A stretch of DNA of 17,013 nucleotides from a virus (lineage: Duplodnaviria > Heunggongvirae > Uroviricota > Caudoviricetes). Shown here one piece after another: positions 1-17,013 of the stretch; the stretch's first letter is position 1; each line of letters starts with the position of its first letter. The notes under the pieces are model-generated. The model had not been told where the DNA came from, did not search any database, and worked only from the letters and a program-made list of their open reading frames with translations. The stretch lies in IMG/VR virus record IMGVR_UViG_2740892232_000002; one strand, 5' to 3'. The position numbers were made by a program, and so were the translations under genes.

Positions 1-75
1 TTTGAGCTGAATAGTACAGTTCTGTATTGGTTTTCCTGCACCGTCTTTCAGCACGCCTGAAATCTGTACTGCCAT
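1..75 (-). CDS. stf: Side tail fibre protein (Stf-like), N-terminal 25 codons only; gene continues beyond window start
   Basis: Minus-strand translation from ATG at 75..73 reads MAVQISGVLKDGAGKPIQNCTIQLK, matching the conserved N-terminus of lambda Stf / E. coli prophage side tail fibres (MAVKISGVLKDG.GKP.QNCTIQLK) as I recall it. GGAG Shine-Dalgarno about 7 nt upstream. Truncated by window edge. Confidence 0.7.
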   Translation of the reverse strand, partial: MAVQISGVLKDGAGKPIQNCTIQLK

Positions 76-90
76 ATTCACTCCACAAAT

Positions 91-116
91 AAAAAAGGCG
101 CCATTTCTGGCGCCCG
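91..116 (-). terminator. Putative intrinsic terminator or hairpin downstream of J: GGCGCC stem (97-102 / 109-114), 6-nt loop, then T-tract on minus strand
   Basis: Seen in sequence: plus strand aaaaaaGGCGCCatttctGGCGCCcg; on the minus strand this is GGCGCC-AGAAAT-GGCGCC followed by TTTTTTATTTG. Lies 18 bp after the J stop, and the U-tract runs into the stf RBS. Confidence 0.5.
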
Positions 117-133
117 TATTTGGGTTATAAAAT

Positions 134-3100: not shown

Positions 3101-3532
3101 ATTACGCTGTATCTGAACCAGCAGGCGGACTTCCGATGGATTCCTGTCCCCCTTTGAGGTGGTTTCCACCAGTGCCTGCACGCCGAAAGTAAAACGCAGA
3201 CGGTCAATGTTTGCCGACGTGATGGTCCGGGTGATCGGCGTGTCATATTTCACTTCTGTACCGAGCACCGTCTCGGAGCCGGAGGATTCAAATCCCTCCG
3301 GCGGTGTCTGCTCCTGCTCACCGGCCCGGAACACCACCGTGACGCCGGATATATTGGTATTCCCCTCACTGTCCAGCACCGGCGTACTGTTCAGCAGCAC
3401 GCTTTTTAATCCATCCACCGGACCTTCAACCGGCCCTTCGCTGATGGCATCGATCACACTCAGCAGCTGCGTGGACTTCAGGTTGTCCTTCGCTTCGCGC
3501 GGGGTATGCCCCTTACTGCTGCCTTTACCCAT
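134..3532 (-). CDS. J: Tail tip / host specificity protein J (central tail fibre), 1132 aa
   Basis: Full-length ORF with ATG at 3532..3530. The N-terminus [41 protein letters not shown] and the 1132-aa length match lambda gpJ. Position immediately downstream of I with a 60-bp spacer, as in lambda. Confidence 0.95.
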
Positions 3533-3554
3533 TCGTCATGCTCCATAAACGATA

Positions 3555-3574
3555 AAACCGCCCGGAGGCGGTTT
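3555..3574 (-). promoter_or_regulatory. Intergenic hairpin between I and J (8-bp stem AAACCGCC / GGCGGTTT, 4-nt loop) upstream of the J RBS
   Basis: Seen in sequence: perfect inverted repeat aaaccgcc-cgga-ggcggttt. On the sense (minus) strand it is followed by UAUCGUUUAUGGAG and then the J start codon. Confidence 0.45.
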
Positions 3575-3592
3575 CACATAAAACATTTTGCA

Positions 3593-4234
3593 TCAGCGAC
3601 CAATCACCACAACCTGACCACCATCCCCTTCGTCTGCCGTGCTGATCTCCTGAGAAACCACGCGTGACCCCACGCGCATTTCACCGTACAGAACAGGCAG
3701 AACATTGCCCTGGGCAACCATGTTATCCAGTGAGGAGAAATAGGTGTTCTGCTTACCGTTATCCGTTGTCTGTGTACGGGGAGTTCTGGCTTTCGGTGCC
3801 AGCATCTGTGCAACACCACCCAGTGTCATACTGGCACCGAGAGAAAACAGCAGATTACTCGCCATTATTCCTACCCCCGGCATCCATATAGCAACCGCCA
3901 TAACAGCAGCTCCCAGCACTACCTGAAACACACCGCCACTTTTGGCTCCTGCCAGACGCGGCACGATGTGGATCACTGCTCCATTCGCCAGCGGTTCATT
4001 AAGACGAGCTGATAATTCGGTTTCACCTGCATCACGCCCGGCAATCCGTATCTGATACCAGCCCTCATTCAGTTTCTGACGAAACGCCGGGAGCTGTGTG
4101 GCCAGCGCCCGGATGGCTTCAGCCCCCGTTTTCACACGAAGGTCGATGCGGCGGCCAAATCGTTGTAAATCCCCGTAAAGGCAGATGCGTGCCATGCCCG
4201 GTGACGCCAGAGGGAGTGTGTGCGTCGCTGCCAT
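3593..4234 (-). CDS. I: Tail tip assembly protein I (ubiquitin-like N-terminus), 213 aa
   Basis: ORF starts at ATG 4234..4232 with MAATHTLPLASPGMARICLYGDLQRFGRRIDLRVKTGAEAIRALATQLPAFRQKL, matching lambda gpI. Overlaps the K 3' end by 103 bp in another frame, the same arrangement as lambda K/I. Confidence 0.9.
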   Translation of the reverse strand: MAATHTLPLASPGMARICLYGDLQRFGRRIDLRVKTGAEAIRALATQLPAFRQKLNEGWYQIRIAGRDAGETELSARLNEPLANGAVIHIVPRLAGAKSGGVFQVVLGAAVMAVAIWMPGVGIMASNLLFSLGASMTLGGVAQMLAPKARTPRTQTTDNGKQNTYFSSLDNMVAQGNVLPVLYGEMRVGSRVVSQEISTADEGDGGQVVVIGR

Positions 4235-4875
4235 TTGTCGGTATACCTCTCTCGTTTGCTCAGTTGTTCAGGAATATGGTGCAGCAGCTCGCCGTCACCA
4301 CAGTAAATGGCGGCATGATTCGGCACCGATGAACCAAAACAGCACAGCAGCACATCGCCCGGCTGCGCCGCTGACAACGGCACCTGATACAGCCCTGTGG
4401 CCTCCAGATTATCCAGATAGAGATTCTGACCGTGACGCCACCAGTCATCCCCGCGATGAAAATCCGGCATCTCAATCCCCGCCAGATGATAAGCATCCCG
4501 GAACAGCGTGTAACAGTCCGTCACCCCGTGCTCAAAGCGCCGCCCGGTGAGATGCGGCACACAGCGGAACTTATGAATCGCCCCCCGGCAAACCAGCCAC
4601 CACGGCAAATCACTCTGCACCTGCAGCCGCCGGTCAGCCTCACTCAGCCAGGGCAGACCACCGGGGTGGCTGTGGACCAGCGCCACAATCTCACCCTGCA
4701 TTTCTGCCTGCAGCCAGTCCTCCGGAGCCATCCGGAAATACTCCTCCGGCTCACCGGAGATATTCACGCAGGGGAAATATCTTTCCCCCTCCGGCGTGCT
4801 TACCACGAAGCCGCACGACTCCGCTGGCGCACATCGCCGGGCGTGCGCCAGAATCGCTGATTCTGTCTCTGTCAT
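4132..4875 (-). CDS. K: Tail tip assembly protein K (MPN/JAMM domain plus NlpC/P60 cysteine peptidase domain), 247 aa from ATG 4875
   Basis: Translation MTETESAILAHARRCAPAESCGFVV... contains a JAMM motif (HSHPGGLPWLSEAD, i.e. HxHx7Sx2D) and NlpC/P60-like Cys/His residues (TDCYTLFRDAY ... NHAAIYCGDGELLHHIP). ATG at 4875 sits 4 nt after the L stop. The supplied ORF track starts at a TTG at 4917 that would overlap L by 38 bp; I prefer the ATG. Confidence 0.85.
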   Translation of the reverse strand: MTETESAILAHARRCAPAESCGFVVSTPEGERYFPCVNISGEPEEYFRMAPEDWLQAEMQGEIVALVHSHPGGLPWLSEADRRLQVQSDLPWWLVCRGAIHKFRCVPHLTGRRFEHGVTDCYTLFRDAYHLAGIEMPDFHRGDDWWRHGQNLYLDNLEATGLYQVPLSAAQPGDVLLCCFGSSVPNHAAIYCGDGELLHHIPEQLSKRERYTDKWQRRTHSLWRHRAWHASAFTGIYNDLAAASTFV

Positions 4876-4879
4876 GGGA

Positions 4880-5578
4880 TTACTGCGAAAGTTTGTTAAT
4901 GGAAAGGAAGCCGCCAAAGTTGCCGACGTTATTGCGGAACTTACAACCGCTCAGGCATTTGCTGCATTTATCCTTCGTGATATCGGACGTTGGCTGGTCA
5001 TATTCATCCGCGACCGCCGGACCGTGATAACCGCACTCATCGCCGCGATAGGTCCAGGTGCAGGTGTTGGCCAGCATGATACGTCCCGGAAAAACAGCGC
5101 CGTCCGTTTCCGTCGGTGTGGACAACACAAAGGAGGCACTGACCGCACTCAGTTCGCTGCACTGCTCGATGCGCCAGCGGCTGATCACCTCCTGCTCCGG
5201 ATCGGCGTCGCTGTTTCCGTTGACGAAGTTCACCGCATCCAGAAAACGGGCGTAAACCTTACGCCTGACCACCGTTCCGCCGACCAGACTCTGCAGGTCT
5301 TCCGCCATCCCCGTGACCATGCCGTGCAGGTTAGAAACCGTCAGTGTCGGACGGGCAGCACTGCCCTTGCCGTTCATCTCAAATCCACTCCCCTGAATGG
5401 GATAGGCCTGATACTGCCGACTCTGCCAGGTGACAGACTCTCCTTTCTCGTTCTGCTCATTGCAGAAAAAGTAGCGATCCCCGCCTACCTCGGTCAGGTC
5501 GATTTCCCAGAGCACCACGCTGGCCGACTGCTCCGCACGGGTGCATTCATTCAGTGTTTCCTGCCGGATATCCTGCAT
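4880..5578 (-). CDS. L: Tail tip protein L, 232 aa
   Basis: ORF MQDIRQETLNECTRAEQSASVVLWEIDLTEVGGDRYFFCNEQNEKGESVTWQSRQYQAY... matches lambda gpL in sequence and length. ATGA overlap with the M stop. Confidence 0.93.
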   Translation of the reverse strand: MQDIRQETLNECTRAEQSASVVLWEIDLTEVGGDRYFFCNEQNEKGESVTWQSRQYQAYPIQGSGFEMNGKGSAARPTLTVSNLHGMVTGMAEDLQSLVGGTVVRRKVYARFLDAVNFVNGNSDADPEQEVISRWRIEQCSELSAVSASFVLSTPTETDGAVFPGRIMLANTCTWTYRGDECGYHGPAVADEYDQPTSDITKDKCSKCLSGCKFRNNVGNFGGFLSINKLSQ

Positions 5579-5907
5579 CAGTTCACCACCTGTTTAAACT
5601 CTGCGCTGAACTCAACACGCAACATACTGACCTGCGACGACCATTTTGCGCAGGTCACCTTTATCTGCCTGTAACCATAAGGCGGCGTCCACAGAAAGGC
5701 CTTCCAGCCCCCGTGCTCAGCCAGAAACGACTCCAGCGCCGTGGCCTCCTCACGGGAGACAGACAGCGTCACGCTGTACGTTTTCAGGTCAGCGTTCAGC
5801 CCGGCAGGCGCACGCTGGGAATAGCCATCACCAAAGCGCACCTCCCTGACGGAAGGAGCCGATGTCACATCCATACCGGGTTTCACTTTCCAGCGGAAGG
5901 TCTTCAT
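5578..5907 (-). CDS. M: Tail tip protein M, 109 aa
   Basis: ORF MKTFRWKVKPGMDVTSAPSVREVRFGDGYSQRAPAGLNADLKTYSVTLSV... matches lambda gpM; 109 aa. ATGA overlap with the H stop. Confidence 0.93.
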   Translation of the reverse strand: MKTFRWKVKPGMDVTSAPSVREVRFGDGYSQRAPAGLNADLKTYSVTLSVSREEATALESFLAEHGGWKAFLWTPPYGYRQIKVTCAKWSSQVSMLRVEFSAEFKQVVN

Positions 5908-8465
5908 CGTCCACCTCCGGAGAACAGGCCACCATCACGCATCTGTGTCTGAATTTCATCACGGGCACCCTTGCGGGCCATGTCATACACCGCCTTCAGA
6001 GCAGCCGGACCTATCTGCCCGTTCGTGCCGTCGTTGTTAATCACCACATGGTTATTCTGCTCAAACGTCCCGGACGCCTGCGACCGGCTGTCAGCCAGAC
6101 TGCCCGGTGTACCGACATAACCACCGGTGGCATAGCCGCGCATCAGCCGGTAGAGATTCCCCACGCCAATCCGGCTGGTTGCCTCCTTCGTGAAGACAAA
6201 TTCACCACGGTGAACAATCCCCGCTGGCTCATATTTGCCGCCGGTTCCTGTGAATCCTCCGGTTGCAAAATGGAATTTCGCCGCAGCGGCCTGAATGGCT
6301 GTACCGCCTGACGCGGATGCGCCGCCACCAACAGCCCCGCCAATGGCGCTGCCGATACTCCCGACAATCCCCACCATTGCCTGCTTAAGCAGAATTTCTG
6401 TCATCATGGACAGCACGGAACGGGTGAAGCTGCGCCAGTTCTGCTCACTGCCGGTCAGCATCGCTGCCATATTCTGTGCAATACCATCAAAGGTCTGCGT
6501 GGCTGCACTTTTTACCTGCGACATACTGTCCGTGGCGCTCTCTTCCCACTCACTCCAGCCGGACTTCAGGCCTGCCATCCAGCTCCCGCGAAGCTGGTCT
6601 TCAGCCGCCCAGGTCTTTTTCTGCTCTGACATGACGTTATTCAGCGCCAGCGGATTATCGCCATACTGTTCCTTCAGGCGCTGTTCCGTGGCTTCCCGTT
6701 CTGCCTGCCGGTCAGTCAGCCCCCGGCTTTTCGCATCAATGGCGGCCCGTTTTGCCCGTTGCTGCTGTGCGAATTTATCCGCCTGCTGCGCCAGCGCGTT
6801 CAGGCGCTCCTGATACGTAACCTTGTCGCCAAGTGCAGCCAGCTGGCGTTTGTACTCCAGCGTCTCATCTTTATGCGCCAGCAGGGATTTCTCCTGTGCA
6901 GACAGCTGGCGACGTTGCGCCGCCTCCTCCAGTACCGCGAACTGACTCTCCGCCTTCCACAAATCCCGGCGCTGCTGGCTGATTTTCTCATTCGCTCCGG
7001 CATGCTTCTCCAGCGTCCGGAGTTCTGCCTGAAGCGTCAGCAGGGCAGCATGAGCACTGTCTTCCTGACGATCGCCCGCAGACACCTTCACGCCGGACTG
7101 TTTCGGCTTTTTCAGCGTCGCTTCATAATCCTTTTTCGCCGCCGCCATCAGCGTGTTGTAATCTGCCTGCAGGATTTTCCCGTCTTTCAGTGCCTTGTTC
7201 AGTTCTTCCTGACGGGCGGTATATTTCTCCAGCGGCGTCTGCAGCCGTTTGTAAGCCTTCTGCGCCTCTTCGGTATATTTCAGCCGTGACGCTTCGGTAT
7301 CGCTCTGCTGCTGCGCATTTTTGTCCTGTTGAGTCTGCTGCTCAGCCTTCTTTCGGGCGGCTTCAAGCGCAAGACGGGCCTTTTCACGATCATCCCAGTA
7401 ACGCGCCCGCGCTTCATCGTTAACAAAATAATCATCCTTGCGCAGATTCCAGATGTCGTCTGCTTTCTTAAACGCAGCCTCTGCCTTAATCAGCATCTCC
7501 TGCGCGGTATCAGGACGACCAATATCCAGCACCGCATCCCACATGGATTTGAAGGCCCGCGCAGTCCTGTCTGCCCAGGTCTCCAGCGTGCCCATGTTCT
7601 CTTTCAGGCGGCGGGTCTGGTCATCAAACCCTTTCGTTGCGGCCTCGTTCGCCGCCTGCAATGCCCCGGCTTCATCGCCGGAACGCTGCAACTGAGCAAC
7701 ATACGCAATCTGCTCCGCCGTCACGTTATGGAACTGGCGTGCCATCGCCGTCAGCCCCGACGTCGGGTCTGTGGTCAGCTTCCCGAAGGCTTCAGCGACC
7801 TTGTCCACCTCCACGCTGGATGCAGAGGAGAAACGCGCCACACTCTGGCTGATGGACGCAATCTGAGCCTCACCGCTTACCCCCGCCTTAACCAGTGCGC
7901 TGAGTGACTCGCTGGTCTGGTCAAACGTCAGCCCTGCCGCCTGCCCGGCTCTGGACAGGACCAGCATGCGATCTGCCGTCAGCCCCGACTGATTGCCGGA
8001 AAGGACCAGCGTTTTGTTGAAATCGGACAGGGTTGAGTTGCCCTGATACCAGGCATACGCCAGCGCACCGGTCGCCACCGCCAGCGAGGTGGCCCCGACC
8101 ATCGGCAGGGTGAGCGCACCGGCAAGCCCCCTGAACATGGGGATCATCCCGCCGAAGGAGTCCTTCACCTGACCACCCTGTTGCAGCAGGATCAGCCACG
8201 GACTTTGCCCGCCTGCAAGCTGCGTGGCCACGTCAGTGAACTGCGCAGGCAGCATACGCATGGCAGCTTTATACTGCCCGACGGAAATCCCCGCTTTCTG
8301 TGCAGCCAGCGCCTGTCGGCTCAGCGACTGTTCAACGACTGCCGCTGTTTTTTTCGCATCACTTTCCGTACCGGAAAAATGACGCCTGACTCTGGCCATC
8401 TGCTCGTCAAATCTGGCCGCATCCAGACTCAAATCAACGACCAGATCGCCTACCGGTTCAGCCAT
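5904..8465 (-). CDS. H: Tail tape measure protein H, 853 aa
   Basis: 853-aa ORF with coiled-coil-rich middle (long runs of A/E/K/Q/R) and glycine-rich C-terminal segment, typical of tape measure proteins. N-terminus MAEPVGDLVVDLSLDAARFDEQMARVRRHF matches lambda gpH, and the length equals lambda H. Confidence 0.95.
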   Translation of the reverse strand: MAEPVGDLVVDLSLDAARFDEQMARVRRHFSGTESDAKKTAAVVEQSLSRQALAAQKAGISVGQYKAAMRMLPAQFTDVATQLAGGQSPWLILLQQGGQVKDSFGGMIPMFRGLAGALTLPMVGATSLAVATGALAYAWYQGNSTLSDFNKTLVLSGNQSGLTADRMLVLSRAGQAAGLTFDQTSESLSALVKAGVSGEAQIASISQSVARFSSASSVEVDKVAEAFGKLTTDPTSGLTAMARQFHNVTAEQIAYVAQLQRSGDEAGALQAANEAATKGFDDQTRRLKENMGTLETWADRTARAFKSMWDAVLDIGRPDTAQEMLIKAEAAFKKADDIWNLRKDDYFVNDEARARYWDDREKARLALEAARKKAEQQTQQDKNAQQQSDTEASRLKYTEEAQKAYKRLQTPLEKYTARQEELNKALKDGKILQADYNTLMAAAKKDYEATLKKPKQSGVKVSAGDRQEDSAHAALLTLQAELRTLEKHAGANEKISQQRRDLWKAESQFAVLEEAAQRRQLSAQEKSLLAHKDETLEYKRQLAALGDKVTYQERLNALAQQADKFAQQQRAKRAAIDAKSRGLTDRQAEREATEQRLKEQYGDNPLALNNVMSEQKKTWAAEDQLRGSWMAGLKSGWSEWEESATDSMSQVKSAATQTFDGIAQNMAAMLTGSEQNWRSFTRSVLSMMTEILLKQAMVGIVGSIGSAIGGAVGGGASASGGTAIQAAAAKFHFATGGFTGTGGKYEPAGIVHRGEFVFTKEATSRIGVGNLYRLMRGYATGGYVGTPGSLADSRSQASGTFEQNNHVVINNDGTNGQIGPAALKAVYDMARKGARDEIQTQMRDGGLFSGGGR

Positions 8466-9287
8466 ACCGGACTCCTCCTGCGATCCCTTCTGATACTGTC
8501 ATCAGCATTACGTCATCCTCCGTCATGTCCGCCACATCCGGGGAAGTAGGGATAACTTCATTCCCGTCCGGGCCAAAGCGGACACCTCCGGCAAGCCCTG
8601 CCGCTTTCTGCATCAGCACATCATCTTCAGGCTCTTCGTCAGCCTCGCGCCGGTTCAGCAGACTGAAATCCAGCGGATGCATATCCGGATCGCTGAAAAA
8701 CAGGCTGAGCACGGTGTACGTCAGCCCGGAAAAGTGCATATCCAGCAGAACATCATGAAAATAATGGGTACTGTAAAAACGGTGCCAGTCGGCATACTCC
8801 GTGGATGACATCCCGGCAAGCATGGCGCGCCAGTCGGGTCGCCCCATCTCACGCGCCAGTTTCAGGGCAAAACTCAGCTCACCGTCGAACACTTTCCCGC
8901 AGAAACAGGCTCTGCAGGCCCGGCGTCCTCTGCCTGTTCAGGGGCATTATTCACCACAAACTCATACATACCAGACAGCCGGTACACCACGTTTTCAGCA
9001 TGAGAAATTGCCTCTGTGGGCCAGGTGGTAAGCACTTCCTGCTCAATCTGTTTAACGGCTTCATTCATGGACGGCATCTGCGTCTTCTTCGGATGGTTAT
9101 GCCACAGAGACATCGCCACCACAAAAGCGCCGGTTCTGATGACGTCTTCCACAGTAAACTTCCGGTTACTGTCGGATTCTGCCTGCTGTTTCATCAGGGC
9201 GAGATGCTCAATACGCTGCAGGGCTGACAGTTCAGAAAGCGTGACGGTCACGCCGTTATATTCAAATGATTCGGTTTTCAGGAACAT
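8458..9287 (-). CDS. T: Tail assembly chaperone G-T fusion made by programmed -1 ribosomal frameshift (T part 8458..8892)
   Basis: T-frame ORF (VFDGELSFALKLAREMGRPDWRAMLAGMSSTEYADWHRFY...) has no plausible independent ATG and begins inside the G GGA AAG heptamer (minus strand, 8898..8892). This is the classic lambda G-T arrangement. The T stop overlaps the H start by 8 bp. Confidence 0.85.
8874..9287 (-). CDS. G: Tail assembly chaperone G, 137 aa
   Basis: ORF MFLKTESFEYNGVTVTLSELSALQRIEHLALMKQQAESDSNRKFTVEDVIRTGAF... matches lambda gpG. Ends ...SAGKCSTVS with the slippery heptamer GGGAAAG near its 3' end. Confidence 0.92.
   Translation of the reverse strand: MFLKTESFEYNGVTVTLSELSALQRIEHLALMKQQAESDSNRKFTVEDVIRTGAFVVAMSLWHNHPKKTQMPSMNEAVKQIEQEVLTTWPTEAISHAENVVYRLSGMYEFVVNNAPEQAEDAGPAEPVSAGKCSTVS
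8892..8898 (-). other. Programmed -1 frameshift slippery heptamer G_GGA_AAG in G
   Basis: Seen in sequence: plus strand ctttccc at 8892-8898 is GGGAAAG on the minus strand, in the G frame as GCG GGA AAG. After a -1 slip the reading continues GTG TTC GAC (V F D) into the T frame. Confidence 0.85.
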
Positions 9288-9302
9288 CGCTGACTCTCCG
9301 GA

Positions 9303-10043
9303 TTAACTGGCGGTGACGGTGATTTCTGCAACCGCAGCAAACTCACCATTACCGGATACAACCGGAATGTTGACCTTGCCTGCAGCAACGCCGTTCACGG
9401 TGATGGTCATACCACTGACCGACACGGTGGCTTTTGTTTTATCCGCAGACACCGCACGGAAGCTCTTGTCGGTTACACCTTCCGGCTGGAATGCCACGGT
9501 CAGCGTGGTGCTCTGCCCTTTCACTACGGAAGCACTGGCTGGCGTTACCGTCATGCCGGTTGCTGCCGTCACCGTACTGCGATCTTCAGCCATCGACGGG
9601 CGTCCAACATTGGTGACCTTCACCGTGCGGGTGATCACTTCCTTCGCCGTCACCGCTTTACCGATACTGCTGACCCAGCCACGGAACACATCGACCGTGC
9701 CGTTCGGGAAGCGGATTTTATAGGCACGGGTATCACCTTCATTAAACCACGCCAGCAGCGCCTGCTGCCCCTGCTCTCCGGGCATCCACGCCAGCGTGAA
9801 GCTGGTATCTCCGGCTGATTTCTGCCCCTGCCCGGTCGCAGTCCAGTCCGCATCTTCATCATCGAGATAGCTGTCGTCATAGGACTCAGCGGTCAGTTCG
9901 CCGGGTGTCAGGTCTTTAACTTTTGCCAGACGCGACCAGTCAACGTCTGAAAGCGGGTTCGCATAAGGGTCACCGTTCCCCTTATAAACCCACAGTGTGG
10001 TCCCGGCACCTTTCACCGGCATTGTAGGATTTGGTACAGGCAT
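9303..10043 (-). CDS. V: Major tail tube protein V with C-terminal Ig-like domain, 246 aa
   Basis: From ATG 10043..10041: [50 protein letters not shown]... matches lambda gpV; 246 aa as in lambda. The ORF-track start at 10073 would overlap U; the ATG at 10043 leaves a 7-bp spacer after the U stop, as in lambda. Confidence 0.93.
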
Positions 10044-10050
10044 ATCGTCC

Positions 10051-10446
10051 TCACATTTCATAGGTAATGACATAAGTCAGATCGGCTGAACTCCACAGGC
10101 CCGCATCATCGTCGCGTCGGTAGTCATAGCCACTGGCCACCATACTGGTGATCAAATCTGACAGTGCCGGGATATCGCTCATCACCGGATAAATCCGGGA
10201 CTCCATCCACGAATCCAGCTCTGAATCCGGCACCTGAGCAGGCAGGAAAACTTCAATATGCAGCTCCGCCTGCCAGGTATCGCTGTCCAGCTCTTCGCCC
10301 GTGTATTCAGCGCTGGTGAGATAAACGGCAATTGCCGGAAAATCTTCCTCATCAAAAACAGCGGGGCGACCATCAAAAAGCGTCGCCCCGGTGTCATGCT
10401 TCTCCAGTGCATCCAGTACGGCTGCTCGGAGTTCAGTATGTTTCAT
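10051..10446 (-). CDS. U: Tail terminator protein U, 131 aa
   Basis: [57 protein letters not shown]... matches lambda gpU; 131 aa. ATGA overlap with the Z stop. Confidence 0.93.
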
Positions 10447-11021
10447 CGCTTTATTACCATCCTCAGTTGATGCTGCAGCGCATAGCCCAGCTCTTTCGGA
10501 AGACGCTCACGCCGTATCCGCTCAATATTCTGTTTAAACGCCGTGGTAAGCGGCACCGCCATCGGGATTTTCACCACATCAATGGGGTAACGGTTTTTCC
10601 CCGCCACACGCTGCATGACATGCCAGCGGCCATTTTTCAGTTGCTGAATAAACGCGCCGGGAATACGACGGTTTCCCACCACAAGCACACTGCCGCCACC
10701 TTTCAGGGCTGAACGCTGCCCCTTTTTACGACGCCTGCGTCGGGACAGGACAACCCGCGCATTACCCAGCTTGATTACGGGCAAATCCCCCCGGTTCACT
10801 TTGATTCTGGCCTGCGGATTTTTGACCGTGGCCCTTTTCAGCCTGGCCCTTTCCTTTACCAGTTTCCGGCGTACCTTTGTCTCACGGGCAACCTGTGACG
10901 CCGACTGCGATATCGCGGATGAAGCAACGCGGTTAATGGCCATTGCGGCGGCACCCGGCACCGCCGTTTTGCTGATACGACTGAGGTTTTCAACGGCCTG
11001 CTCAAGACCTTTTATGGCCAT
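10443..11021 (-). CDS. Z: Tail completion protein Z, 192 aa
   Basis: From ATG 11021..11019: MAIKGLEQAVENLSRISKTAVPGAAAMAINRVASSAISQSASQVARETKVRRKL... matches lambda gpZ (192 aa). The longer ORF-track start at 11111 would overlap FII. Confidence 0.92.
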   Translation of the reverse strand: MAIKGLEQAVENLSRISKTAVPGAAAMAINRVASSAISQSASQVARETKVRRKLVKERARLKRATVKNPQARIKVNRGDLPVIKLGNARVVLSRRRRRKKGQRSALKGGGSVLVVGNRRIPGAFIQQLKNGRWHVMQRVAGKNRYPIDVVKIPMAVPLTTAFKQNIERIRRERLPKELGYALQHQLRMVIKR

Positions 11022-11031
11022 ACATCCCCTT

Positions 11032-11385
11032 TCAGCGGCGACGGTTAACGGCAGGTGGTTGCCCCCGGTTGAGCCAGAGATAACAACTCCCTCCGTCATC
11101 CGGAGAAACACGATCCACCCAGAATATCTCGCCGTTAATGGTCAGCGTGTCACCACGCCGTACAGCACAAACCGTATCCGTAAGCACAAATAATGACGGG
11201 TTGCTTCCTTCAATACGGATCCCACTACTGGCAAAACCCAGCGACTCCGGATCGTCAAAAACGCCATGAACCTCGCCGCCACGCTGTGCACCGGAGGTGA
11301 ACTGCGCACTGATGCCCATCACTTCAACAATCGTACTGTCCACCCCGGCAAGGGCGGCATCAAAGGCATTCTGAAAATCACGCAT
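11032..11385 (-). CDS. FII: Head-tail connector protein FII, 117 aa
   Basis: From ATG 11385..11383: MRDFQNAFDAALAGVDSTIVEVMGISAQFTSGAQRGGEVHGVFDDPESLGF...GDTLTINGEIFWVDRVSPDDGGSCYLWLNRGQPPAVNRRR aligns with lambda gpFII (MADFDNLFDAAI...VNRRR) and gives exactly 117 aa. This start overlaps the FI stop by 8 bp. Confidence 0.88.
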   Translation of the reverse strand: MRDFQNAFDAALAGVDSTIVEVMGISAQFTSGAQRGGEVHGVFDDPESLGFASSGIRIEGSNPSLFVLTDTVCAVRRGDTLTINGEIFWVDRVSPDDGGSCYLWLNRGQPPAVNRRR

Positions 11386-11752
11386 AAACAGCCATTCCGC
11401 CATCAACGTGTGTTTTTGCATCTGAGGACATAATCAGAATCACCCGACCAACATCCGCAAGCTCAACGGATTCCCCCGTTTCACCATCAATGCCACAGAG
11501 ATGGAGGCAGGTCAGAACTCTGATGCGCGTTAACGCGCCGGATGTTTCCTCACGAACATCATGAGCCGCGGTTTCCTGCTCCCGGATATCCATATTCATA
11601 ACCTGTACATCATCGCCGGATGACTGCATTTCCTCTTCCCATTCCGCCACCCGCTGCGCTATCTCTGCGGCACTCCCGGATATATCCGGCTCACGCCCCA
11701 GAATCAGGGCCAGTTCATCAAGCCGTTTCAGATTTTGCTCTTTCGTTGCCAT
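11378..11752 (-). CDS. FI: DNA packaging / head assembly protein FI-like (diverged from lambda FI), 124 aa
   Basis: From ATG 11752..11750 with a GGGGG SD: MATKEQNLKRLDELALILGREPDISGSAAEIAQRVAEWEEEMQ... Sits in the FI position between E and FII and is acidic and FI-like at the N-terminus, but much less similar to lambda FI than the flanking tail genes are to their lambda counterparts. Confidence 0.7.
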   Translation of the reverse strand: MATKEQNLKRLDELALILGREPDISGSAAEIAQRVAEWEEEMQSSGDDVQVMNMDIREQETAAHDVREETSGALTRIRVLTCLHLCGIDGETGESVELADVGRVILIMSSDAKTHVDGGMAVYA

Positions 11753-11766
11753 ATCAGCCCCCTGTG

Positions 11767-11795
11767 AAAAAAGACACGGGGGCATTTCGCCCCCG
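11767..11795 (-). promoter_or_regulatory. Hairpin plus T-tract between E and FI (7-bp G/C stem CGGGGGC / GCCCCCG, loop GAAAT, then UGUCUUUUUUC on the sense strand)
   Basis: Seen in sequence: plus 11777-11795 cgggggc-atttc-gcccccg, A-run at 11767-11772. On the minus strand the stem is followed after 4 nt by six T. Terminator-like, inside a polycistronic late operon. Confidence 0.45.
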
Positions 11796-11803
11796 CTCAC
11801 GGA

Positions 11804-12838
11804 TTATTTCACCTGTACCACCACAAACTCATNNNNNNNNNNGTCCGGCAACACCATCAGCGGTGCGGACTGCGTCATGGTAAATTCACGGGCAGGATCC
11901 CCCACCGTCAGCCAGTGTTTCGGATAACGGGAAGAAGCCACCACACCTTCGGAAAACGCCTGCGCATCCTGAATGGCTCCGTAACAACGGATCCCATCTG
12001 CAGCAGTATTCCCCAGGACCAGCATGCCATCTGGAAGATAACGTTTTTCGATACCGTCTTCTGCTATATAAGACGTTTTCGCCACAACAATAGCCAGATC
12101 GCCGTAATACCCCTTGAAGGACACCACTGCGCCCAGATCTTTCACTGCCGTTTCGAGTTGTGAATTTGAACCGCGACGGGTATCCAGTTTTTCGCGAAAC
12201 AGCTTAAAACCATTCAGCAGACGCCAGACGGTACCGTCCATGATGGCAATATTCACAAGACCGCTGGCCTGGTCGCAGTAAAGGTCAATATCATGTGTAG
12301 GATCGAACGTGTCACGATCCTGTTTTGACCATTCCTTACCGCTACCCTGTGTGATGTTATTCTTCGTCGACCTGCCAAAATCGACCTCAATTTTCTCGAA
12401 CTGGTCTCCTTCCATGGTGTATTTGCCATACAACACAGCATTTACCGCCTGCATTTCTTCCACCTGGACAATCGCGTGCTCTTCCTGTTTGAGGTTATCG
12501 GTAATGATACGCAGACGGCGGTAAGCCGGATCGTTCAGTTGAGATGGATCTTCACCAGGAAGGCGCTCAACCGCCTGCTGGTAATTAAATTCGTGTTTCG
12601 GCTTGACGTAGCCCGGACGCAACACGCGGGTTTCACCACCACGATGACGCAGCACTTTTCCTTCAACAACCGGGGAGACATAGGCCGCCACCGGCGTTTT
12701 TCCGGTAATTTTGTCCAGCATCACCTCTTCGGTATGGAAATTCACCGTACGGCGGAAAAACAGCTCCAGAAACAGCGCACGAAATTTAACTTTTTGTTCG
12801 GTATAACCGAGTAACTGGCGGGTCGTAAACAATCCCAT
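11804..12838 (-). CDS. E: Major capsid protein E (HK97-fold), interrupted near the C-terminus by a 10-N gap
   Basis: ORF MGLFTTRQLLGYTEQKVKFRALFLELFFRRTVNFHTEEV...RGSNSQLETAVKDLG...GDPAREFTMTQSAPLMVLPD[NNN]EFVVVQVK aligns along its length with lambda gpE (MSMYTTAQLL...TGDPAREFTMIQSAPLMLLADPDEFVSVQLA) at moderate identity. AAGGA SD 7 nt upstream. The gap at 11833-11842 falls 8-11 codons from the stop. Confidence 0.9.
   Translation of the reverse strand: MGLFTTRQLLGYTEQKVKFRALFLELFFRRTVNFHTEEVMLDKITGKTPVAAYVSPVVEGKVLRHRGGETRVLRPGYVKPKHEFNYQQAVERLPGEDPSQLNDPAYRRLRIITDNLKQEEHAIVQVEEMQAVNAVLYGKYTMEGDQFEKIEVDFGRSTKNNITQGSGKEWSKQDRDTFDPTHDIDLYCDQASGLVNIAIMDGTVWRLLNGFKLFREKLDTRRGSNSQLETAVKDLGAVVSFKGYYGDLAIVVAKTSYIAEDGIEKRYLPDGMLVLGNTAADGIRCYGAIQDAQAFSEGVVASSRYPKHWLTVGDPAREFTMTQSAPLMVLPDXXXXEFVVVQVK
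11833..11842. other. Assembly gap (10 N) inside E
   Basis: Run of exactly 10 n. Flanking translation (…LMVLPD / EFVVVQVK) against lambda (…LMLLADPDEFVSVQLA) suggests at most a few bases are actually missing. Confidence 0.95.
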
Positions 12839-12866
12839 AAATCAGTTCCTTTCATTCAGAAATCAG

Positions 12867-12888
12867 TCAGGCCACCGCGGTGGCCTGA
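12867..12888 (-). promoter_or_regulatory. Perfect 22-bp palindrome TCAGGCCACCGCGGTGGCCTGA between D and E
   Basis: Seen in sequence at 12867-12888, between the D stop (12896) and E start (12838). Can form a hairpin with a 9-bp stem on the late mRNA. Confidence 0.45.
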
Positions 12889-12895
12889 TAACGTG

Positions 12896-13243
12896 TTACG
12901 GCAGCGCCGCGTGACTCAGGGCACTGCCGGCAAAGGCGTTGGCCTTTTTGTGTTCATCCACACTTTCAGGCCAGTGGATTGCCTCCGTCGCAAAGGTTCC
13001 CGACTTGTAATACGTCAGCGCCGTCTCTGTACCTTCAAGCGGCAGTACCAGTATGCCAACCGCACTACCGGCTTTCTGTCCGTCCCAGACCACCAGTTTC
13101 CCGGTGGCTTCATCCAGCATCAGGGGCGTCAGTGCCGGTGTTGGCGAGGAAATCCCGCTGCTGCCTGTGGCGGTATGAGCCGGATCATTACCGGCAAAAA
13201 TACGTACTTCCGCACGCTGTTCAGTGATGGTTTTCGTCACCAT
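12896..13243 (-). CDS. D: Capsid decoration protein D, 115 aa
   Basis: ORF MVTKTITEQRAEVRIFAGNDPAHTATGSSGISSPTPALTPLMLDEATGKLVVWDGQKAGSAVGILV...TYYKSGTF aligns with lambda gpD (…SDPAHTAT…TPLMLD…KLVAWDG…AVGIL…FYKSGTF…). Strong AGGAGG SD upstream of ATG 13243..13241. Confidence 0.88.
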   Translation of the reverse strand: MVTKTITEQRAEVRIFAGNDPAHTATGSSGISSPTPALTPLMLDEATGKLVVWDGQKAGSAVGILVLPLEGTETALTYYKSGTFATEAIHWPESVDEHKKANAFAGSALSHAALP

Positions 13244-13279
13244 ATTGTAAAAACCTCCTATTGATGGTCAGCACTGACT

Positions 13280-14095
13280 TCATGGCATGGCCATGAGCAT
13301 TTTCACGTCCGCATCACCGTCTGCTGACGTCTGTGGCACGCCACCCTGTACCGCTGCCGGTGAATGGTTCGCCATGAAATGTTCAAACATGGCGGTTGTG
13401 GATGCAGAGACCGGTTCTGCCTTACCTGATCCCGCAGCCAGCACAGCCCGGGCGCTCTCCACTGTCATTCCCGGGCAGGCAGCCAGCTGTTCAGCCTGCG
13501 CCTCAGCCCCTTTTGCCTCATCCAGTGCCATGATCTGATCACGGAGTGATGGTCCGGCATCCGCCTGCGGTGAAGCAGCCAGGATCGGGCGGGCTTTTTC
13601 CACCGTCATCTCCGGCATCGCCGCCAGCGTTGCCGCCAGTTGTTCACGACCGTTCGCTTCTTCACACGCCATAATGCGATCGGCTTCACTCTGCGTGGAT
13701 GCCACCGGCTGCTGCGGTGCCGCCGCGGCCAGAATCGCCCGGGCCTGTTCAACGCTCATGCCCTGTTGTCCTGCCAGCATCGTGGCAAGCTGTTCACGTC
13801 CTTTCGCTTCCTGGCATGTCAGGATCCCCATCACTCGCTGGTTCTCCTGCGCGGCGGCTTCCGTTGCAGTTAATTGCGGCATAGTGCCTCCTCTGACATT
13901 ACTGTTCAGCGCCGTGGCCATCACACTGATGGCATCCGACGCATTGATTAATTCATCCGCCAGCCCGGCCTCAATGCCGGACTGACCTTCAAAAACGGCA
14001 GCCTCTGTTCCCGTGACGGCATCAACAGACAGACCGGTATACATCGCCACTTTTTCGGCAAACATCCGGCGCGCCGCATCAATCCGCTGCTGCAT
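13280..14095 (-). CDS. Nu3: Scaffolding protein Nu3-like, nested in-frame in the 3' part of C; start uncertain (ATG at 14095 or 14065)
   Basis: In lambda, Nu3 is translated from an internal in-frame start in C. Two in-frame ATGs (14095..14093 and 14065..14063) lie near the equivalent position (…DMQQRIDAARRMFAEKV…). The C-terminal region is low-complexity, A/Q/E-rich and scaffold-like. Start not verifiable from sequence alone. Confidence 0.35.
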   Translation of the reverse strand: MQQRIDAARRMFAEKVAMYTGLSVDAVTGTEAAVFEGQSGIEAGLADELINASDAISVMATALNSNVRGGTMPQLTATEAAAQENQRVMGILTCQEAKGREQLATMLAGQQGMSVEQARAILAAAAPQQPVASTQSEADRIMACEEANGREQLAATLAAMPEMTVEKARPILAASPQADAGPSLRDQIMALDEAKGAEAQAEQLAACPGMTVESARAVLAAGSGKAEPVSASTTAMFEHFMANHSPAAVQGGVPQTSADGDADVKMLMAMP

Positions 14096-15150
14096 GTCCT
14101 GGCGAACCTCTGCCGGCAACGCTTCAAACTGATTGCCATCCACCTTGTGCGCACCTGAGTAAATCAGCGTGATATCCACACCGGCCTGCGCCAGATGACC
14201 GGCATAGCTGACATGGCTCATCATCACGCCAATGGAGCCGATACGGGATGTCTGGGTAACCAGCCGTCGGGAGCAGGCCGACGCCAGCAGCATGGCTGCA
14301 GAACAGGCCGTGTCATTGCACAGTGCCCAGACCGGCTTCTGCTGACGGAGGCGGTAAATCATGTCAGCACAGTCAAACGCACCGGCGGCCTGCCCGCCCG
14401 GACTGTCAATGTCCAGCAGTACACCCCGCACCTGGCTATCCGCCATTGCCTGCTGAAGACAGGCGACAATGCCGTCATAGCCTGTCATTCCGGAAAATGG
14501 CCGCATACCACCCAGCCGGTGCACCAGCGTGCCGGTCACCGGCAGTACAGCAATACCGTTCACCACCCGGTAAACACGGGCCGGTCGTTTACCTCCGGCC
14601 ATATACTCGTCCGTTTCAGCCAGCATTCCGGGAGCATCAAGCTGTACCTGTTGTTGTGGTACCGAAAGACTTGCTGCCCCCATCTCGCGCCCGAGCGCGC
14701 AAAAGAAAACCCGCGCATAGGCGNNNNNNNNNNGCAGTCAAACGCGCCGGCGGCCTGCCCGCCCGGACTGTCAATGTCCAGCAGTACGCCCCGCACCTGG
14801 CTATCCGCCATTGCCTGCTGAAGACAGGCGACAATGCCGTCATAGCCTGTCATTCCGGAAAATGGCCGCATACCCCCCAGCCGGTGCACCAGCGTGCCTG
14901 TCACCGGCAGTACAGCAATACCGTTCACCACCCGGTAAACACGGGCCGGTCGTTTACCTCCGGCCATGTACTCGTCCGTTTCAGCCAGCATTCCGGGTGC
15001 ATCAAGCTGTACCTGCTGTTGTGGTACCGAAAGACTTGCTGCCCCCATCTCGCGCCCGAGCGCGCAAAAGAAAACCCGCGCATAGGCGGGCTCCAGAAGC
15101 AGCGGTTCATTGAATGCTGCGGCAATAATGTGTGAAAGATTACGTCTCAC
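13280..15150 (-). CDS. C: Head maturation protease C (S49/ClpP-like) with C-terminal scaffolding (Nu3) domain; span inflated by a 10-N gap and a 353-bp unmerged overlap, true length about 500 aa
   Basis: N-terminal fragment from GTG 15150 (MRRNLSHIIAAAFNEPLLLEPAYARVFFCAL...) and the main ORF (…VVNGIAVLPVTGTLVHR…SRRLVTQTSRIGSIGVMMSHVSYAG…ITLIYSGAHKVDGN…) align with lambda gpC (…MNGIAVLPVSGTLVSR…SRRLVTQTARTGSIGVMMAH…ITLIYSGSHKVDGN…). Start overlaps the B 3' end by 11 bp. The reading frame is broken only by the gap/duplication at 14724-15088. No in-frame ATG is available upstream, so the start codon call is uncertain. Confidence 0.85.
13422..13843 (-). repeat. Three tandem, diverged ~135-140-bp (~45-aa) in-frame repeats within the C/Nu3 scaffolding region
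   Basis: Protein repeats: …RVMGILTCQEAKGREQLATMLAGQQGMSVEQARAILAAAAP… / …DRIMACEEANGREQLAATLAAMPEMTVEKARPILAASPQ… / …DQIMALDEAKGAEAQAEQLAACPGMTVESARAVLAAGSG…. Also visible at the DNA level as three imperfect direct repeats. Confidence 0.8.
14371..14723. repeat. 353-bp near-identical direct copy of 14736..15088, separated from it by the N10 gap; probable unmerged contig overlap
   Basis: Seen in sequence: constant 365-bp offset, no indels, 7 substitutions. All 7 are synonymous in the C reading frame (both copies translate to …MGAASLSVPQQQVQLDAPGMLAETDEYMAGGKRPARVYRVVNGIAVLPV…GAFDC). Confidence 0.85.
14724..14733. other. Assembly gap (10 N) at the junction of the duplicated C 5' segment
   Basis: Run of exactly 10 n, flanked on both sides by the same C-gene sequence. 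Confidence 0.95.
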
Positions 15151-16848
15151 GTGGTGTTGTCTCCTCTTCCGGCCTGCGACTCTCCGCTATCTGCTGCTGA
15201 TACGCCTGCGATATCCACACCGGACGTGAGAGTCCGGCTTTTTGCCGCTCTGCAGATTCCCTGACCTGCTGGCGGAAAATGTCCTGATAATCCTCGCCCA
15301 TCAGCGCCAGCTCTTTNNNNNNNNNNCTATCCACACCGGACGTGAGAGTCCGGCTTTTTCCCGCTCTGCAGATTCCCTGACCTGCTGGCGGAAAATGTCC
15401 TGATAATCCTCGCCCATCAGCGCCAGCTCTTTCTCATACGTGCTCAGTCCGGCCTCAATGCGCATCACTGATTCCTGAACCTCCTTGAGCCCGTCAATGG
15501 CCATTCTTCCGGCTCCAATCCACTCAGCCCGTGACCAGGCTGATCGCGCCTGATAAAAATCAAAACGTGCCCGTGGCGGACGAATAATCCCCCGAAGAAG
15601 TGCCTCTTCCAGCCAGCAGGAAAACATCTGCGTGGCCAGTCGGGACGCAATAAATTTTCGCCGCCCCATAAAATAGCGCCACGACTCATTGGCGGATGCG
15701 CGGGCACTTGAATAACTGACCTTCGAGTAATCACGGGACAACTGTTCGTAGGAAACGCCAAGACCGGCGGCGATATACCGCAGCAGCGCCTGTTCAAGCG
15801 CCGAAAATCCATTGTCTGAATCCTGCGCGGTCTGAAGTTTCAGATCATCACCGGGGAAAAGGTGCGGAATTTTGACACCGCCCAGCGTCACGCTATTCGT
15901 GTCATACCAGGTGGAGAACTTATCCAGAATATTAATAAGCGGATTATCCTTCTGCCCCTGCGGCGCACCGGCGATATATTCAAAGGCCTTTTCGGTATCA
16001 AGGTCACTTTCAATCGTCGCTGCATACATCGCCTTCACTATGGCCGACTGAAGCTGTGTTGCCTGCAGGGAGTCCAGCATCTTCAGCCGTTCCATAACGC
16101 TGTAAAACTGATTGGCTCCACGGGTCTGCCCGTCCTCCACCGGCTCGAAAATATGCAGCATGGCCGGACGCCCGGTGGGAAGTTCACGCGGGATCCGTTC
16201 CCATCGTCCACTCCCGGAGCGAGGAAAATCATCCTCACAGATATGGTACGCAACGGCACGGCCATATCGATCAACCTCCACACCGGCCCGCAGAAAACGG
16301 TTCCCGATACCGTGTCCTGGCGTGTCCACCCGTTTCGGACTCACGGCTTTAAAACGCGTACGAAACAGTTGCGTGCTCTCCGTATCCCAGACCGGCTGCA
16401 CAAAGATTTCGCCGTTAAACGCATGAACGCCCACACCTTCACGGATAAATTCCGTAAACGTGCGTTTCCCTTCCACGTCGATCTCACCAAACATCCCTTC
16501 TGCGTATTCTGACCAGGCCGCCTCCACCTCATCGACAAAACTTTTTGCCGCGGTCTCCCGCATCCCCAGCCAGCGCCAGTTCGGACGGTAGCTAATCAGA
16601 AACATATGCCCGACAATGTGATCCTTATGCAGGGCCACCGCATTGGCCGCTATTCCGTTATTGCGCACCAGATCATCTGCACGGGCATTCCCCAGACGCA
16701 ACGCGGGCAGCAGGGCCGCATCGGCACTCTGCGAGGGTGGCAACCACTCTGCCATTTGCCCGCCAAATCCTGCACCGCCACCGTTGTAGCTGAGGCTCTC
16801 CCGAAGCGGAACGCCGTTCACATCAATCAGGACAGGCGTTCGTTTCAT
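15140..16848 (-). CDS. B: Portal protein B; span contains a 10-N gap and a 105-bp unmerged overlap, true length about 533 aa
   Basis: ORF from ATG 16848..16846: MKRTPVLIDVNGVPLRESLSYNGGGAGFGGQMAEWLPPSQSADAALLP…ARADDLVRNNG…EPVEDGQTRGAN.FYSVME…LQSAIVKAMYAATIES…LRYIAAGLGVSYEQLSR…ARASANESW.YFMGRRKF…DWIG.GRMAIDGLKEVQE.VM.IEAGLSTYEKE aligns along its length with lambda gpB at moderate identity. The C-terminal 23 codons (…SQAYQQQIAESRRPEEETTPRET) lie beyond the gap and end at 15140. Confidence 0.88.
15212..15316. repeat. 105-bp near-identical direct copy of 15328..15432, separated by the N10 gap; probable unmerged contig overlap in the B 3' end
   Basis: Seen in sequence: tatccacaccggacgtgagagtccggcttttt[g/c]ccgctctgcagattccctgacctgctggcggaaaatgtcctgataatcctcgcccatcagcgccagctcttt on both sides of the gap. 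The single mismatch changes one B codon (Q versus E). Confidence 0.85.
15317..15326. other. Assembly gap (10 N) inside B
   Basis: Run of exactly 10 n, flanked by duplicated B sequence. Confidence 0.95.
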
Positions 16849-17013
16849 AACCTCACTCCCAGCGGACGACGGCGACGGCGGGTTGTCCCCAGTACCGACT
16901 CCGCATCATTGATCGCCCGGTTAAGCTCATCCAGAGAAGCTGCCGTATATTCAATTCTGCGACCATCTTTCTGGACAGACACCACCCGTTTACCGGTTAA
17001 TAAATCAAGGCGC
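16845..17013 (-). CDS. W: Head completion / head-tail joining protein W (C-terminal ~55 codons; 5' end beyond window)
   Basis: Hand translation of the minus strand gives …RLDLLTGKRVVSVQKDGRRIEYTAASLDELNRAINDAESVLGTTRRRRRPLGVRL*, aligning with lambda gpW (…[27 protein letters not shown]…RRRG…). Its TGA stop overlaps the B ATG (ATGA). Confidence 0.8.
   Translation of the reverse strand, partial: RLDLLTGKRVVSVQKDGRRIEYTAASLDELNRAINDAESVLGTTRRRRRPLGVRL

What the first reader, a model, noticed from the sequence alone, without database searches (positions are those of the whole stretch)
14371..15088. N10 gap flanked by a 353-bp near-identical direct repeat that splits gene C
Sequence 14371-14723 and 14736-15088 are the same stretch of the C 5' region, with the 10-N run exactly at the junction. 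That is the signature of two contig ends overlapping but not merged during scaffolding, not of a biological duplication. The 7 differences between the copies are all synonymous in the C frame, a pattern expected from two real, diverged alleles (for example two related lambdoid prophages in the same genome, or a mixed population) rather than random sequencing error. C is therefore annotated as broken here but is probably intact in reality, and the window may be a chimeric join of paralogous prophages.
Basis: seen in the sequence. Interest (0 to 1): 0.5.

Follow-up and report, generated by a model that had tools for sequence, protein, structure and literature searches.

The report
Unmerged contig overlap, false gene duplication
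The 355-base "direct repeat" around the run of ten Ns is not biology: two overlapping contig ends from slightly different copies of an E. coli prophage head gene were placed end to end in a draft assembly instead of being merged, so the gene only looks broken.

Summary
The N10 run 14724-14733 lies exactly between them.

It is an assembly artefact. The window is the whole WGS record CCPW01000060.1 (GCA_000753035.1) and holds three N10 runs, so it is four contigs. A second gap (15317-15326) is flanked in the same way by a 106-nt repeat in the portal gene. The first (11833-11842) stands for 4 missing bases.

Every listed top hit among complete E. coli genomes and phages, and all 23 fetched loci, have one copy. 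The 3701-nt query maps to 3220 nt, and the 481-nt excess equals the two repeat periods (365 + 116). Removing one copy and the Ns restores a 501-aa S49 protease/scaffold gene (lambda C equivalent, phage-21 type). It is identical to the protein in four related prophages.

All 10 sites that differ between the overlapping ends are natural polymorphisms. The 8 in C are third-position and synonymous, so two real haplotypes were sampled.

The contigs on either side belong to different lineages. c1+c2 relatives have portals about 4% different from c4, and c4 is 100% identical to the CE10 prophage. The scaffold is therefore probably a chimera of paralogous prophages. Low interest.

The parts
1..11832 (.). 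Contig c1 of the scaffold. It holds the tail genes (J, I, K, L, M, H, T, G, V, U, Z), FII, FI and the last codons of the major capsid gene E, all on the minus strand.
   Evidence: The N runs define the contig ends. It is 99.89% identical to L007 and 99.44% to L018.
11833..11842 (.). N10 gap 1, inside the major capsid gene. It stands for only 4 missing bases, and there is no overlap here.
   Evidence: c1 ends at L001 12639 and c2 starts at 12644. The same result holds against L007, 1701/1696. E is called as 344 aa in the record against 342 aa in relatives.
11843..14723 (.). Contig c2. It holds the rest of E, the head decoration gene D and the 3' 480 codons of C, all on the minus strand.
   Evidence: 0 mismatches over its first 2526 nt to L004, L009 and L018, and 3 mismatches in its last 355 nt.
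13280..14723 (-). C gene (S49 protease/scaffold, with Nu3 nested), 3' part. It appears in the record as a 480-aa product starting at the gap edge.
   Evidence: Gene call for L008 with Peptidase_S49. Frame and stop were checked.
14369..14723 (-). Overlap copy 1 (end of c2), covering C codons 21-139.
14724..14733 (.). N10 gap 2, a placeholder at a join whose true distance is -355 nt.
14734..15088 (-). Overlap copy 2 (start of c3), the same C codons. It has 8 synonymous third-position differences from copy 1.
14734..15316 (.). Contig c3 (583 nt). It holds the C 5' end (start codon at 15150) and the portal 3' end (stop at 15140). Its conserved 122-nt core is 15089-15210.
   Evidence: Maps to L001 15170-15752. 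The core has 0-2 mismatches to all 23 panel loci.
15211..15316 (-). Second overlap, copy 1 (end of c3), portal codons about 473-508. This is the type-A allele (Q497, S508).
15317..15326 (.). N10 gap 3, a placeholder at a join whose true distance is -106 nt.
15327..15432 (-). Second overlap, copy 2 (start of c4). This is the CE10-type allele (E497, A508).
15327..17013 (.). Contig c4. It holds the portal gene (start codon at 16848) and the start of W. It is 100% identical to the CE10, AR_0013 and N32 prophages.

Best explanation
This is a false duplication made during scaffolding. The window is a four-contig scaffold of a phage-21-type lambdoid prophage late region from a draft E. coli assembly. 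At two joins, adjacent contigs really overlap (by 355 nt and 106 nt). The overlapping ends carry different alleles, so they were not merged. They were laid end to end with the fixed 10-N placeholder instead. This repeats C codons 21-139 and portal codons about 473-508, so the two genes look split. The true sequence has one copy of each stretch, an intact 501-aa C gene and an intact 530-aa portal gene. The ends differ because the read set held at least two haplotypes of this head module. The most likely source is two or more paralogous prophages in one genome (inferred). The scaffold probably switches from one prophage (c1+c2, type A) to another (c4, CE10 type) across the 583-nt contig c3 (inferred).
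For: Shown:
- There are three N10 runs, and the repeat copies abut the Ns on both sides at two of them.
- Against an intact prophage the contigs map colinearly with overlaps of 355 and 106 nt and a 4-nt gap.
- The 3701-nt query spans 3220 nt in each of the 25 listed complete E. coli genomes and in 17 phage records. The 481-nt difference equals 365 + 116.
- All 23 fetched loci are single copy and colinear.
- The junction pattern occurs nowhere in viral contigs or genome contigs.
- Merging restores C at 501 aa, with 0 differences to L004, L005, L011 and L018, and the portal at 530 aa.
- All 10 differing sites segregate in the 23-locus panel. The 8 in C are third positions and synonymous; under random error the chance of 8 of 8 third positions is (1/3)^8, about 1.5e-4.
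- The source is identified as the complete 17,013-bp record CCPW01000060.1.

For paralogs and a chimeric join:
- Genomes with this module have a median of 2 and up to 7 places.
- Two copies lie on one chromosome in L013/L014 and in L024/L025.
- The c2 body has 0 of 2526 mismatches to type-A loci, whose portals differ from c4 at 61-66 sites.
- c4 has 0 of 1687 mismatches to CE10, whose C/D/E differs from c2 at 166 sites.
- The right end of c3 carries the type-A portal allele, so both portal alleles are present in this one record.

A gap lying between the two copies is a published hallmark of false duplications (PMC9516828).
Against: No reads, depth data or AGP file were available, so the artefact is inferred from sequence and comparison, not seen directly. 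Lambdoid head modules are highly mosaic; panel loci L001, L002 and L003 show intermediate combinations. A natural type-A/CE10-type recombinant in the source genome therefore cannot be excluded. The left end of c3 matches neither type A nor CE10 exactly (closest are L002/L003, 2 mismatches), so a simple two-copy model does not explain everything. The closest relative, ABVTXT010000007.1 (L007), could not be read past the 3' end of C, so its portal type is unknown.
Confidence: 0.93

Rival explanations
1. The artefact is the same, but the two haplotypes come from a mixed or contaminated culture (two E. coli strains, or free phage plus prophage) and not from paralogous prophages in one genome.
For: Both alleles at every differing site are natural variants. 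That fits any source of two real haplotypes. Nothing in the window tells the two sources apart.
Against: Multiple copies of this module in one genome are the norm: median 2 places per carrying genome and up to 7. Two copies on one chromosome are seen in L013/L014 and L024/L025. No contamination therefore needs to be invoked.
Confidence: 0.12
2. The scaffold order is correct and not chimeric. One prophage is a natural type-A/CE10-type recombinant, and only the contig ends are polluted by reads from a second copy.
For: Head-gene mosaicism is common in the panel; L001, L002 and L003 combine segments differently. The 3 mismatches of c2 to type A lie only in its last 355 nt, which is what a contig end recruiting foreign reads would look like.
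Against: None of the 23 panel loci, and none of the top complete-genome hits, combine a c2-type C/D/E with a c4-type portal; the top-hit lists do not overlap. The four closest relatives of c1/c2 whose portal is known (L018, L011, L009, L004) all have type-A portals.
Confidence: 0.2
3. The differences are sequencing or consensus errors at low-coverage contig ends (a homotype false duplication of a single-copy region).
For: Contig ends are error-prone, and the first base of each overlap is one of the mismatches.
Against: All 10 differing sites coincide with sites that segregate among independent prophages, and both alleles are observed in the panel. 8 of 8 in C are third-position and synonymous.
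Confidence: 0.03
4. This is a genuine tandem duplication of 365 nt inside gene C (and of 116 nt inside the portal gene), with the junction simply unsequenced.
For: None beyond the presence of the two copies in the record.
Against: The Ns sit exactly at both junctions. The pattern occurs twice within 600 nt. No tandem copy was seen in any fetched or listed relative, and no match to the junction pattern was found elsewhere. A real duplication of 365 nt or 116 nt is not a multiple of 3 and would destroy two essential head genes.
Confidence: 0.01

Closest known systems
False 'heterotype' duplications in genome assemblies (Ko et al. 2022, Genome Biol 23:205, PMC9516828; VGP terminology)
   Same: Two diverged versions of one locus are both kept and placed next to each other on one scaffold with a gap between them. 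This creates an apparent gene duplication or broken gene. The paper lists a gap between the duplicated pair as a hallmark.
   Different: In that work the two versions are the haplotypes of a diploid vertebrate. Here the genome is haploid and bacterial, and the two versions are most likely paralogous prophage copies. The scale here is 355 and 106 nt, not kilobases.
Fixed-length N placeholders for short or negative scaffold gaps. From memory, the Velvet manual says gaps estimated below 10 bp are written as 10 Ns; I could not verify this here.
   Same: All three gaps are exactly 10 N, although their true sizes are +4, -355 and -106 nt. That is the behaviour expected of a minimum-gap placeholder.
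   Different: The assembler and scaffolder used for GCA_000753035.1 are unknown. No paper on the assembly was found.
Phage 21 head gene module (genes 4/5/6, equivalent to lambda B, C/Nu3 and D; records OL657228.1 and M81255.1)
   Same: The region is 97.8-97.9% identical to phage 21, with the same gene order: portal, S49 protease/scaffold with nested scaffold gene, decoration protein, major capsid protein.
   Different: Nothing functional differs. The apparent split of C and of the portal gene is artefactual.

Membership tests
Scaffolding artefact: unmerged overlapping contig ends (false duplication) | A gap placeholder lies exactly between the two copies, and each copy runs to the gap edge. 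| tested here: met
   14369-14723 | N10 | 14734-15088, and again 15211-15316 | N10 | 15327-15432.
Scaffolding artefact: unmerged overlapping contig ends (false duplication) | The locus is single copy in intact relatives, and the excess length equals the repeat period. | tested here: met
   3701 nt maps to 3220 nt in all 25 listed complete genomes and 17 phage records. The 481-nt excess equals 365 + 116. The 23 fetched loci are colinear.
Scaffolding artefact: unmerged overlapping contig ends (false duplication) | Collapsing the overlap restores intact reading frames. | tested here: met
   Merged C is 501 aa and identical to the C protein of L004, L005, L011 and L018. The merged portal is 530 aa with one stop at its end.
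Scaffolding artefact: unmerged overlapping contig ends (false duplication) | Read depth and read-pair behaviour: depth is split between the copies, and no read spans a copy-to-copy junction. | not testable with these tools
   No reads or AGP file for GCA_000753035.1 are available here.
Heterotype (two real haplotypes) as opposed to homotype (error-driven) false duplication | The differences between the copies are genuine variants. | tested here: met
   All 10 differing sites carry both alleles in a 23-locus panel. 8 of 8 in C are third-position and synonymous.
Chimeric scaffold joining paralogous prophages | The contigs on either side of the joins belong to different haplotype lineages. | tested here: met
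   The c2 body has 0 mismatches to type-A loci, whose portals differ from c4 at 61-66 sites. c4 has 0 mismatches to CE10, whose C/D/E differs from c2 at 166 sites.
Chimeric scaffold joining paralogous prophages | A second copy of the module exists in the same genome. | tested here: inconclusive
   Both portal alleles and both C alleles are present within this one record, and multi-copy carriage is the norm in other genomes. The other contigs of GCA_000753035.1 could not be inspected.
Genuine tandem duplication | A sequenced, continuous junction between the copies, and/or the duplication recurs in related genomes. | tested here: not met
   Both junctions consist of Ns. No relative has a tandem copy. 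The junction pattern was not found in two public collections.
Lambda C / phage 21 gp5-type S49 head protease-scaffold | Peptidase_S49 domain, position between the portal and decoration genes, about 500 aa with the portal gene overlapping its start. | tested here: met
   The precomputed Pfam hit PF01343 is on record for the source's own gene call. Relatives are annotated as S49 family peptidase, or as capsid protease/scaffolding protein in phage 21. Gene order is conserved.

The most novel reading that the evidence does not exclude
The most novel reading not excluded concerns the haplotype pattern. Haplotypes change over very short distances at the C/portal boundary, and mismatches to the nearest relative cluster in short patches in H and J. 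This could reflect ongoing gene conversion between co-resident paralogous prophages in this strain. The conserved 122-nt C/portal overlap would then act as a recombination hotspot, and the pattern would not be purely an assembly mixture.
Probability: 0.1. Interest if true: 0.25.

Novelty: not a real feature. Interest (0 to 1): 0.06.

Why it matters
The finding matters only for data quality. In record CCPW01000060.1, three head genes are misrepresented. C and the portal gene appear truncated or split, and the major capsid gene carries an X-containing insertion. Anyone counting pseudogenes, judging whether this prophage is intact, or inferring head-gene mosaicism from this record would be misled. 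The record probably also fuses parts of two prophages, so it should not be used as one phage genome for recombination or typing analyses. There is no new biology.

Tried and rejected
- I searched for the exact junction (13 nt + N10 + 17 nt) in viral contigs and genome contigs, to find the source or a real tandem copy. There were no matches.
- I tried to reach the portal region of the nearest relative, ABVTXT010000007.1, through exact look-ups of the FI and V proteins. Both proteins are too common (3570 and 4328 index blocks), and the contig was not among the places shown.
- A literature search for the accession (CCPW01 / GCA_000753035) gave only a false hit, JACCPW.
- I looked for a citable statement of the 10-N convention. 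The one paper opened (CISA, PMC3610655) did not contain it, so the convention remains recalled knowledge.
- Sequencing error as the source of the differences was considered and rejected.
- A real tandem duplication was considered and rejected.

Full report
**Observation.**
The window contains three runs of exactly ten Ns: 11833-11842, 14724-14733 and 15317-15326. It is therefore a scaffold of four contigs:
- c1: 1-11832
- c2: 11843-14723
- c3: 14734-15316 (583 nt)
- c4: 15327-17013

Alignment to an intact reference shows that the overlap is 355 nt (14369-14723 = 14734-15088). This adds an eighth mismatch at the first base.

**What the region encodes.**
All genes are on the minus strand. The window is the late region of a lambdoid prophage with a phage-21-type head module, 97.8-97.9% identical to phage 21. 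Read in the genes' own direction, from the high end of the window to the low end, the order is:
- W (partial)
- portal
- S49 protease/scaffold, the equivalent of lambda C with nested Nu3
- decoration protein D
- major capsid protein E
- FI, FII, Z, U, V, G/T, H, M, L, K, I, J
- the start of a tail-fibre gene

The repeated 355 nt are codons 21-139 of C. The repeated 106 nt are roughly codons 473-508 of the portal gene.

**Single copy everywhere else.**
A 3701-nt query across both gaps matched 2038 of 5426 complete E. coli genomes. In each of the 25 listed hits, and in 17 phage records, it spans only 3220 nt. The 481-nt excess is exactly 365 + 116. Against the ExPEC XM prophage the four contigs map colinearly:
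- c1 ends at L001 12639 and c2 starts at 12644, so 4 nt are missing and there is no overlap.
- c2 and c3 overlap by 355 nt.
- c3 and c4 overlap by 106 nt.

All 23 other loci I fetched are colinear and single copy. The junction pattern occurs nowhere in the viral or representative-genome collections.

**Merging restores the genes.**
Removing either copy plus the Ns gives a 501-aa C protein. It has no differences from the C protein of four related prophages (L004, L005, L011, L018). Merging at the other join gives a 530-aa portal protein. In the gene calls held for the source record, C appears as a 480-aa product starting at the gap edge. E appears as 344 aa instead of 342, because 10 Ns replace 4 nt and the frame is kept.

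**Source.**
An exact look-up of the J protein identified the window as the complete 17,013-bp record CCPW01000060.1 of assembly GCA_000753035.1. Only one other contig carries that J protein, ABVTXT010000007.1 (L007). It is 99.89% identical to c1 and 100% identical to the 1696 nt of c2 that the locus reaches.

**The differences are real alleles.**
The 8 differences in C are all third codon positions and all synonymous. Random errors would do this with probability of about (1/3)^8 = 1.5e-4. The 2 differences in the portal overlap are nonsynonymous, E497Q and A508S. All 10 sites carry both alleles in a panel of 23 independent prophage loci. The overlapping ends therefore come from different real haplotypes, not from sequencing noise.

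**Chimerism.**
Mismatch counts by segment give the following picture:
- The first 2526 nt of c2 have 0 mismatches to L004, L009 and L018 ("type A").
- The last 355 nt of c2 have 3 mismatches to those same loci.
- The right end of c3 has 0 mismatches to type A.
- c4 has 0 mismatches to the CE10 prophage, and is also 100% identical to AR_0013 and N32.
- c4 differs from every type-A portal at 61-66 sites.
- CE10's C/D/E region differs from c2 at 166 sites.

No panel locus combines c2-type and c4-type segments, and the top complete-genome hits for the two do not overlap. Two overlapping ends from one molecule should be identical, and these are not. The scaffold therefore juxtaposes sequence from at least two copies. 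The window itself holds both portal alleles.

Genomes that carry this module have a median of 2 copies and up to 7. Two copies on one chromosome are seen in L013/L014 and L024/L025. The most economical reading is that the source genome has two or more phage-21-type prophages. c1+c2 belong to one of them, c4 belongs to another, and the short contig c3 straddles the highly conserved 122-nt C/portal boundary where the assembly graph tangles. This step is inferred, and a natural recombinant cannot be excluded because these modules are mosaic. The left end of c3 matches neither type exactly; the closest loci are L002/L003 with 2 mismatches. This may reflect a third copy or a mixed consensus, and it is unresolved.

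**Mechanism of the artefact.**
All three gaps are 10 N although their true sizes are +4, -355 and -106 nt. The Ns are therefore a fixed minimum placeholder, not an estimate of gap size. I recall that Velvet writes any gap estimated below 10 bp as 10 Ns, but I could not verify this or find the assembly method. The general phenomenon is documented: two diverged versions of a locus are kept side by side with a gap between them. It is called a false heterotype duplication, and the gap between the pair is listed as a hallmark (PMC9516828).

**Verdict.**
It extends to a second, identical artefact in the portal gene. This is not a biological feature, and interest is low.

Noticed in passing
window 15211-15432 (N10 at 15317-15326): A second unmerged overlap of the same kind. 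106 nt are repeated on both sides of the third N10 run, which splits the 3' end of the portal gene. The two differences are nonsynonymous (E497Q, A508S), and both are natural alleles.
   Followed up: yes
window 11833-11842: The first N10 run lies in the last codons of the major capsid gene and replaces only 4 real bases. The frame is preserved, so the record's E protein is 344 aa with unknown residues instead of 342 aa. It carries no Pfam hit in the precomputed table.
   Followed up: yes
window 6900-7078 (gene H) and 2246-2369 (gene J): The only 13 mismatches between c1 (11.8 kb) and its nearest relative L007 cluster in two short patches: 7 in 179 nt and 6 in 124 nt. This looks like short gene-conversion patches, or reads from a paralogous prophage mixed into the consensus.
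   Followed up: partly
window 14369-14423: c2 is identical to the type-A prophages over 2526 nt. It then carries three G-to-A differences in the first 55 nt of the overlap (window 14369, 14381, 14423), about 300-355 nt before its end. Each of these A alleles occurs in only 1 or 2 of the 23 panel loci. The left end of c3 matches no single panel haplotype either. A third copy or a mixed consensus is possible.
   Followed up: partly
window 8886-8892, minus strand: A GGGAAAG heptamer sits at the G/T gene overlap. This is the expected slippery site for the conserved lambda-type programmed -1 frameshift that makes gpGT. It was not examined further.
   Followed up: no
window 1-75 and 16845-17013: The record is a complete WGS entry of only 17,013 bp. 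It starts 25 codons into a tail-fibre gene (phage_tail_N) and ends inside gene W. These scaffold ends lie within prophage genes that are repeated in many E. coli genomes, which fits an assembly broken by multi-copy prophage sequence.
   Followed up: no
L019, L020, L022, L023 versus the window (V gene, window 9303-10043): The identical 246-aa major tail protein V occurs behind two different head modules. One is phage-21 type (C 501 aa, portal 530 aa), as here. The other is lambda type (C 439 aa, portal 533 aa). This is a clear head/tail mosaic boundary among E. coli prophages.
   Followed up: no
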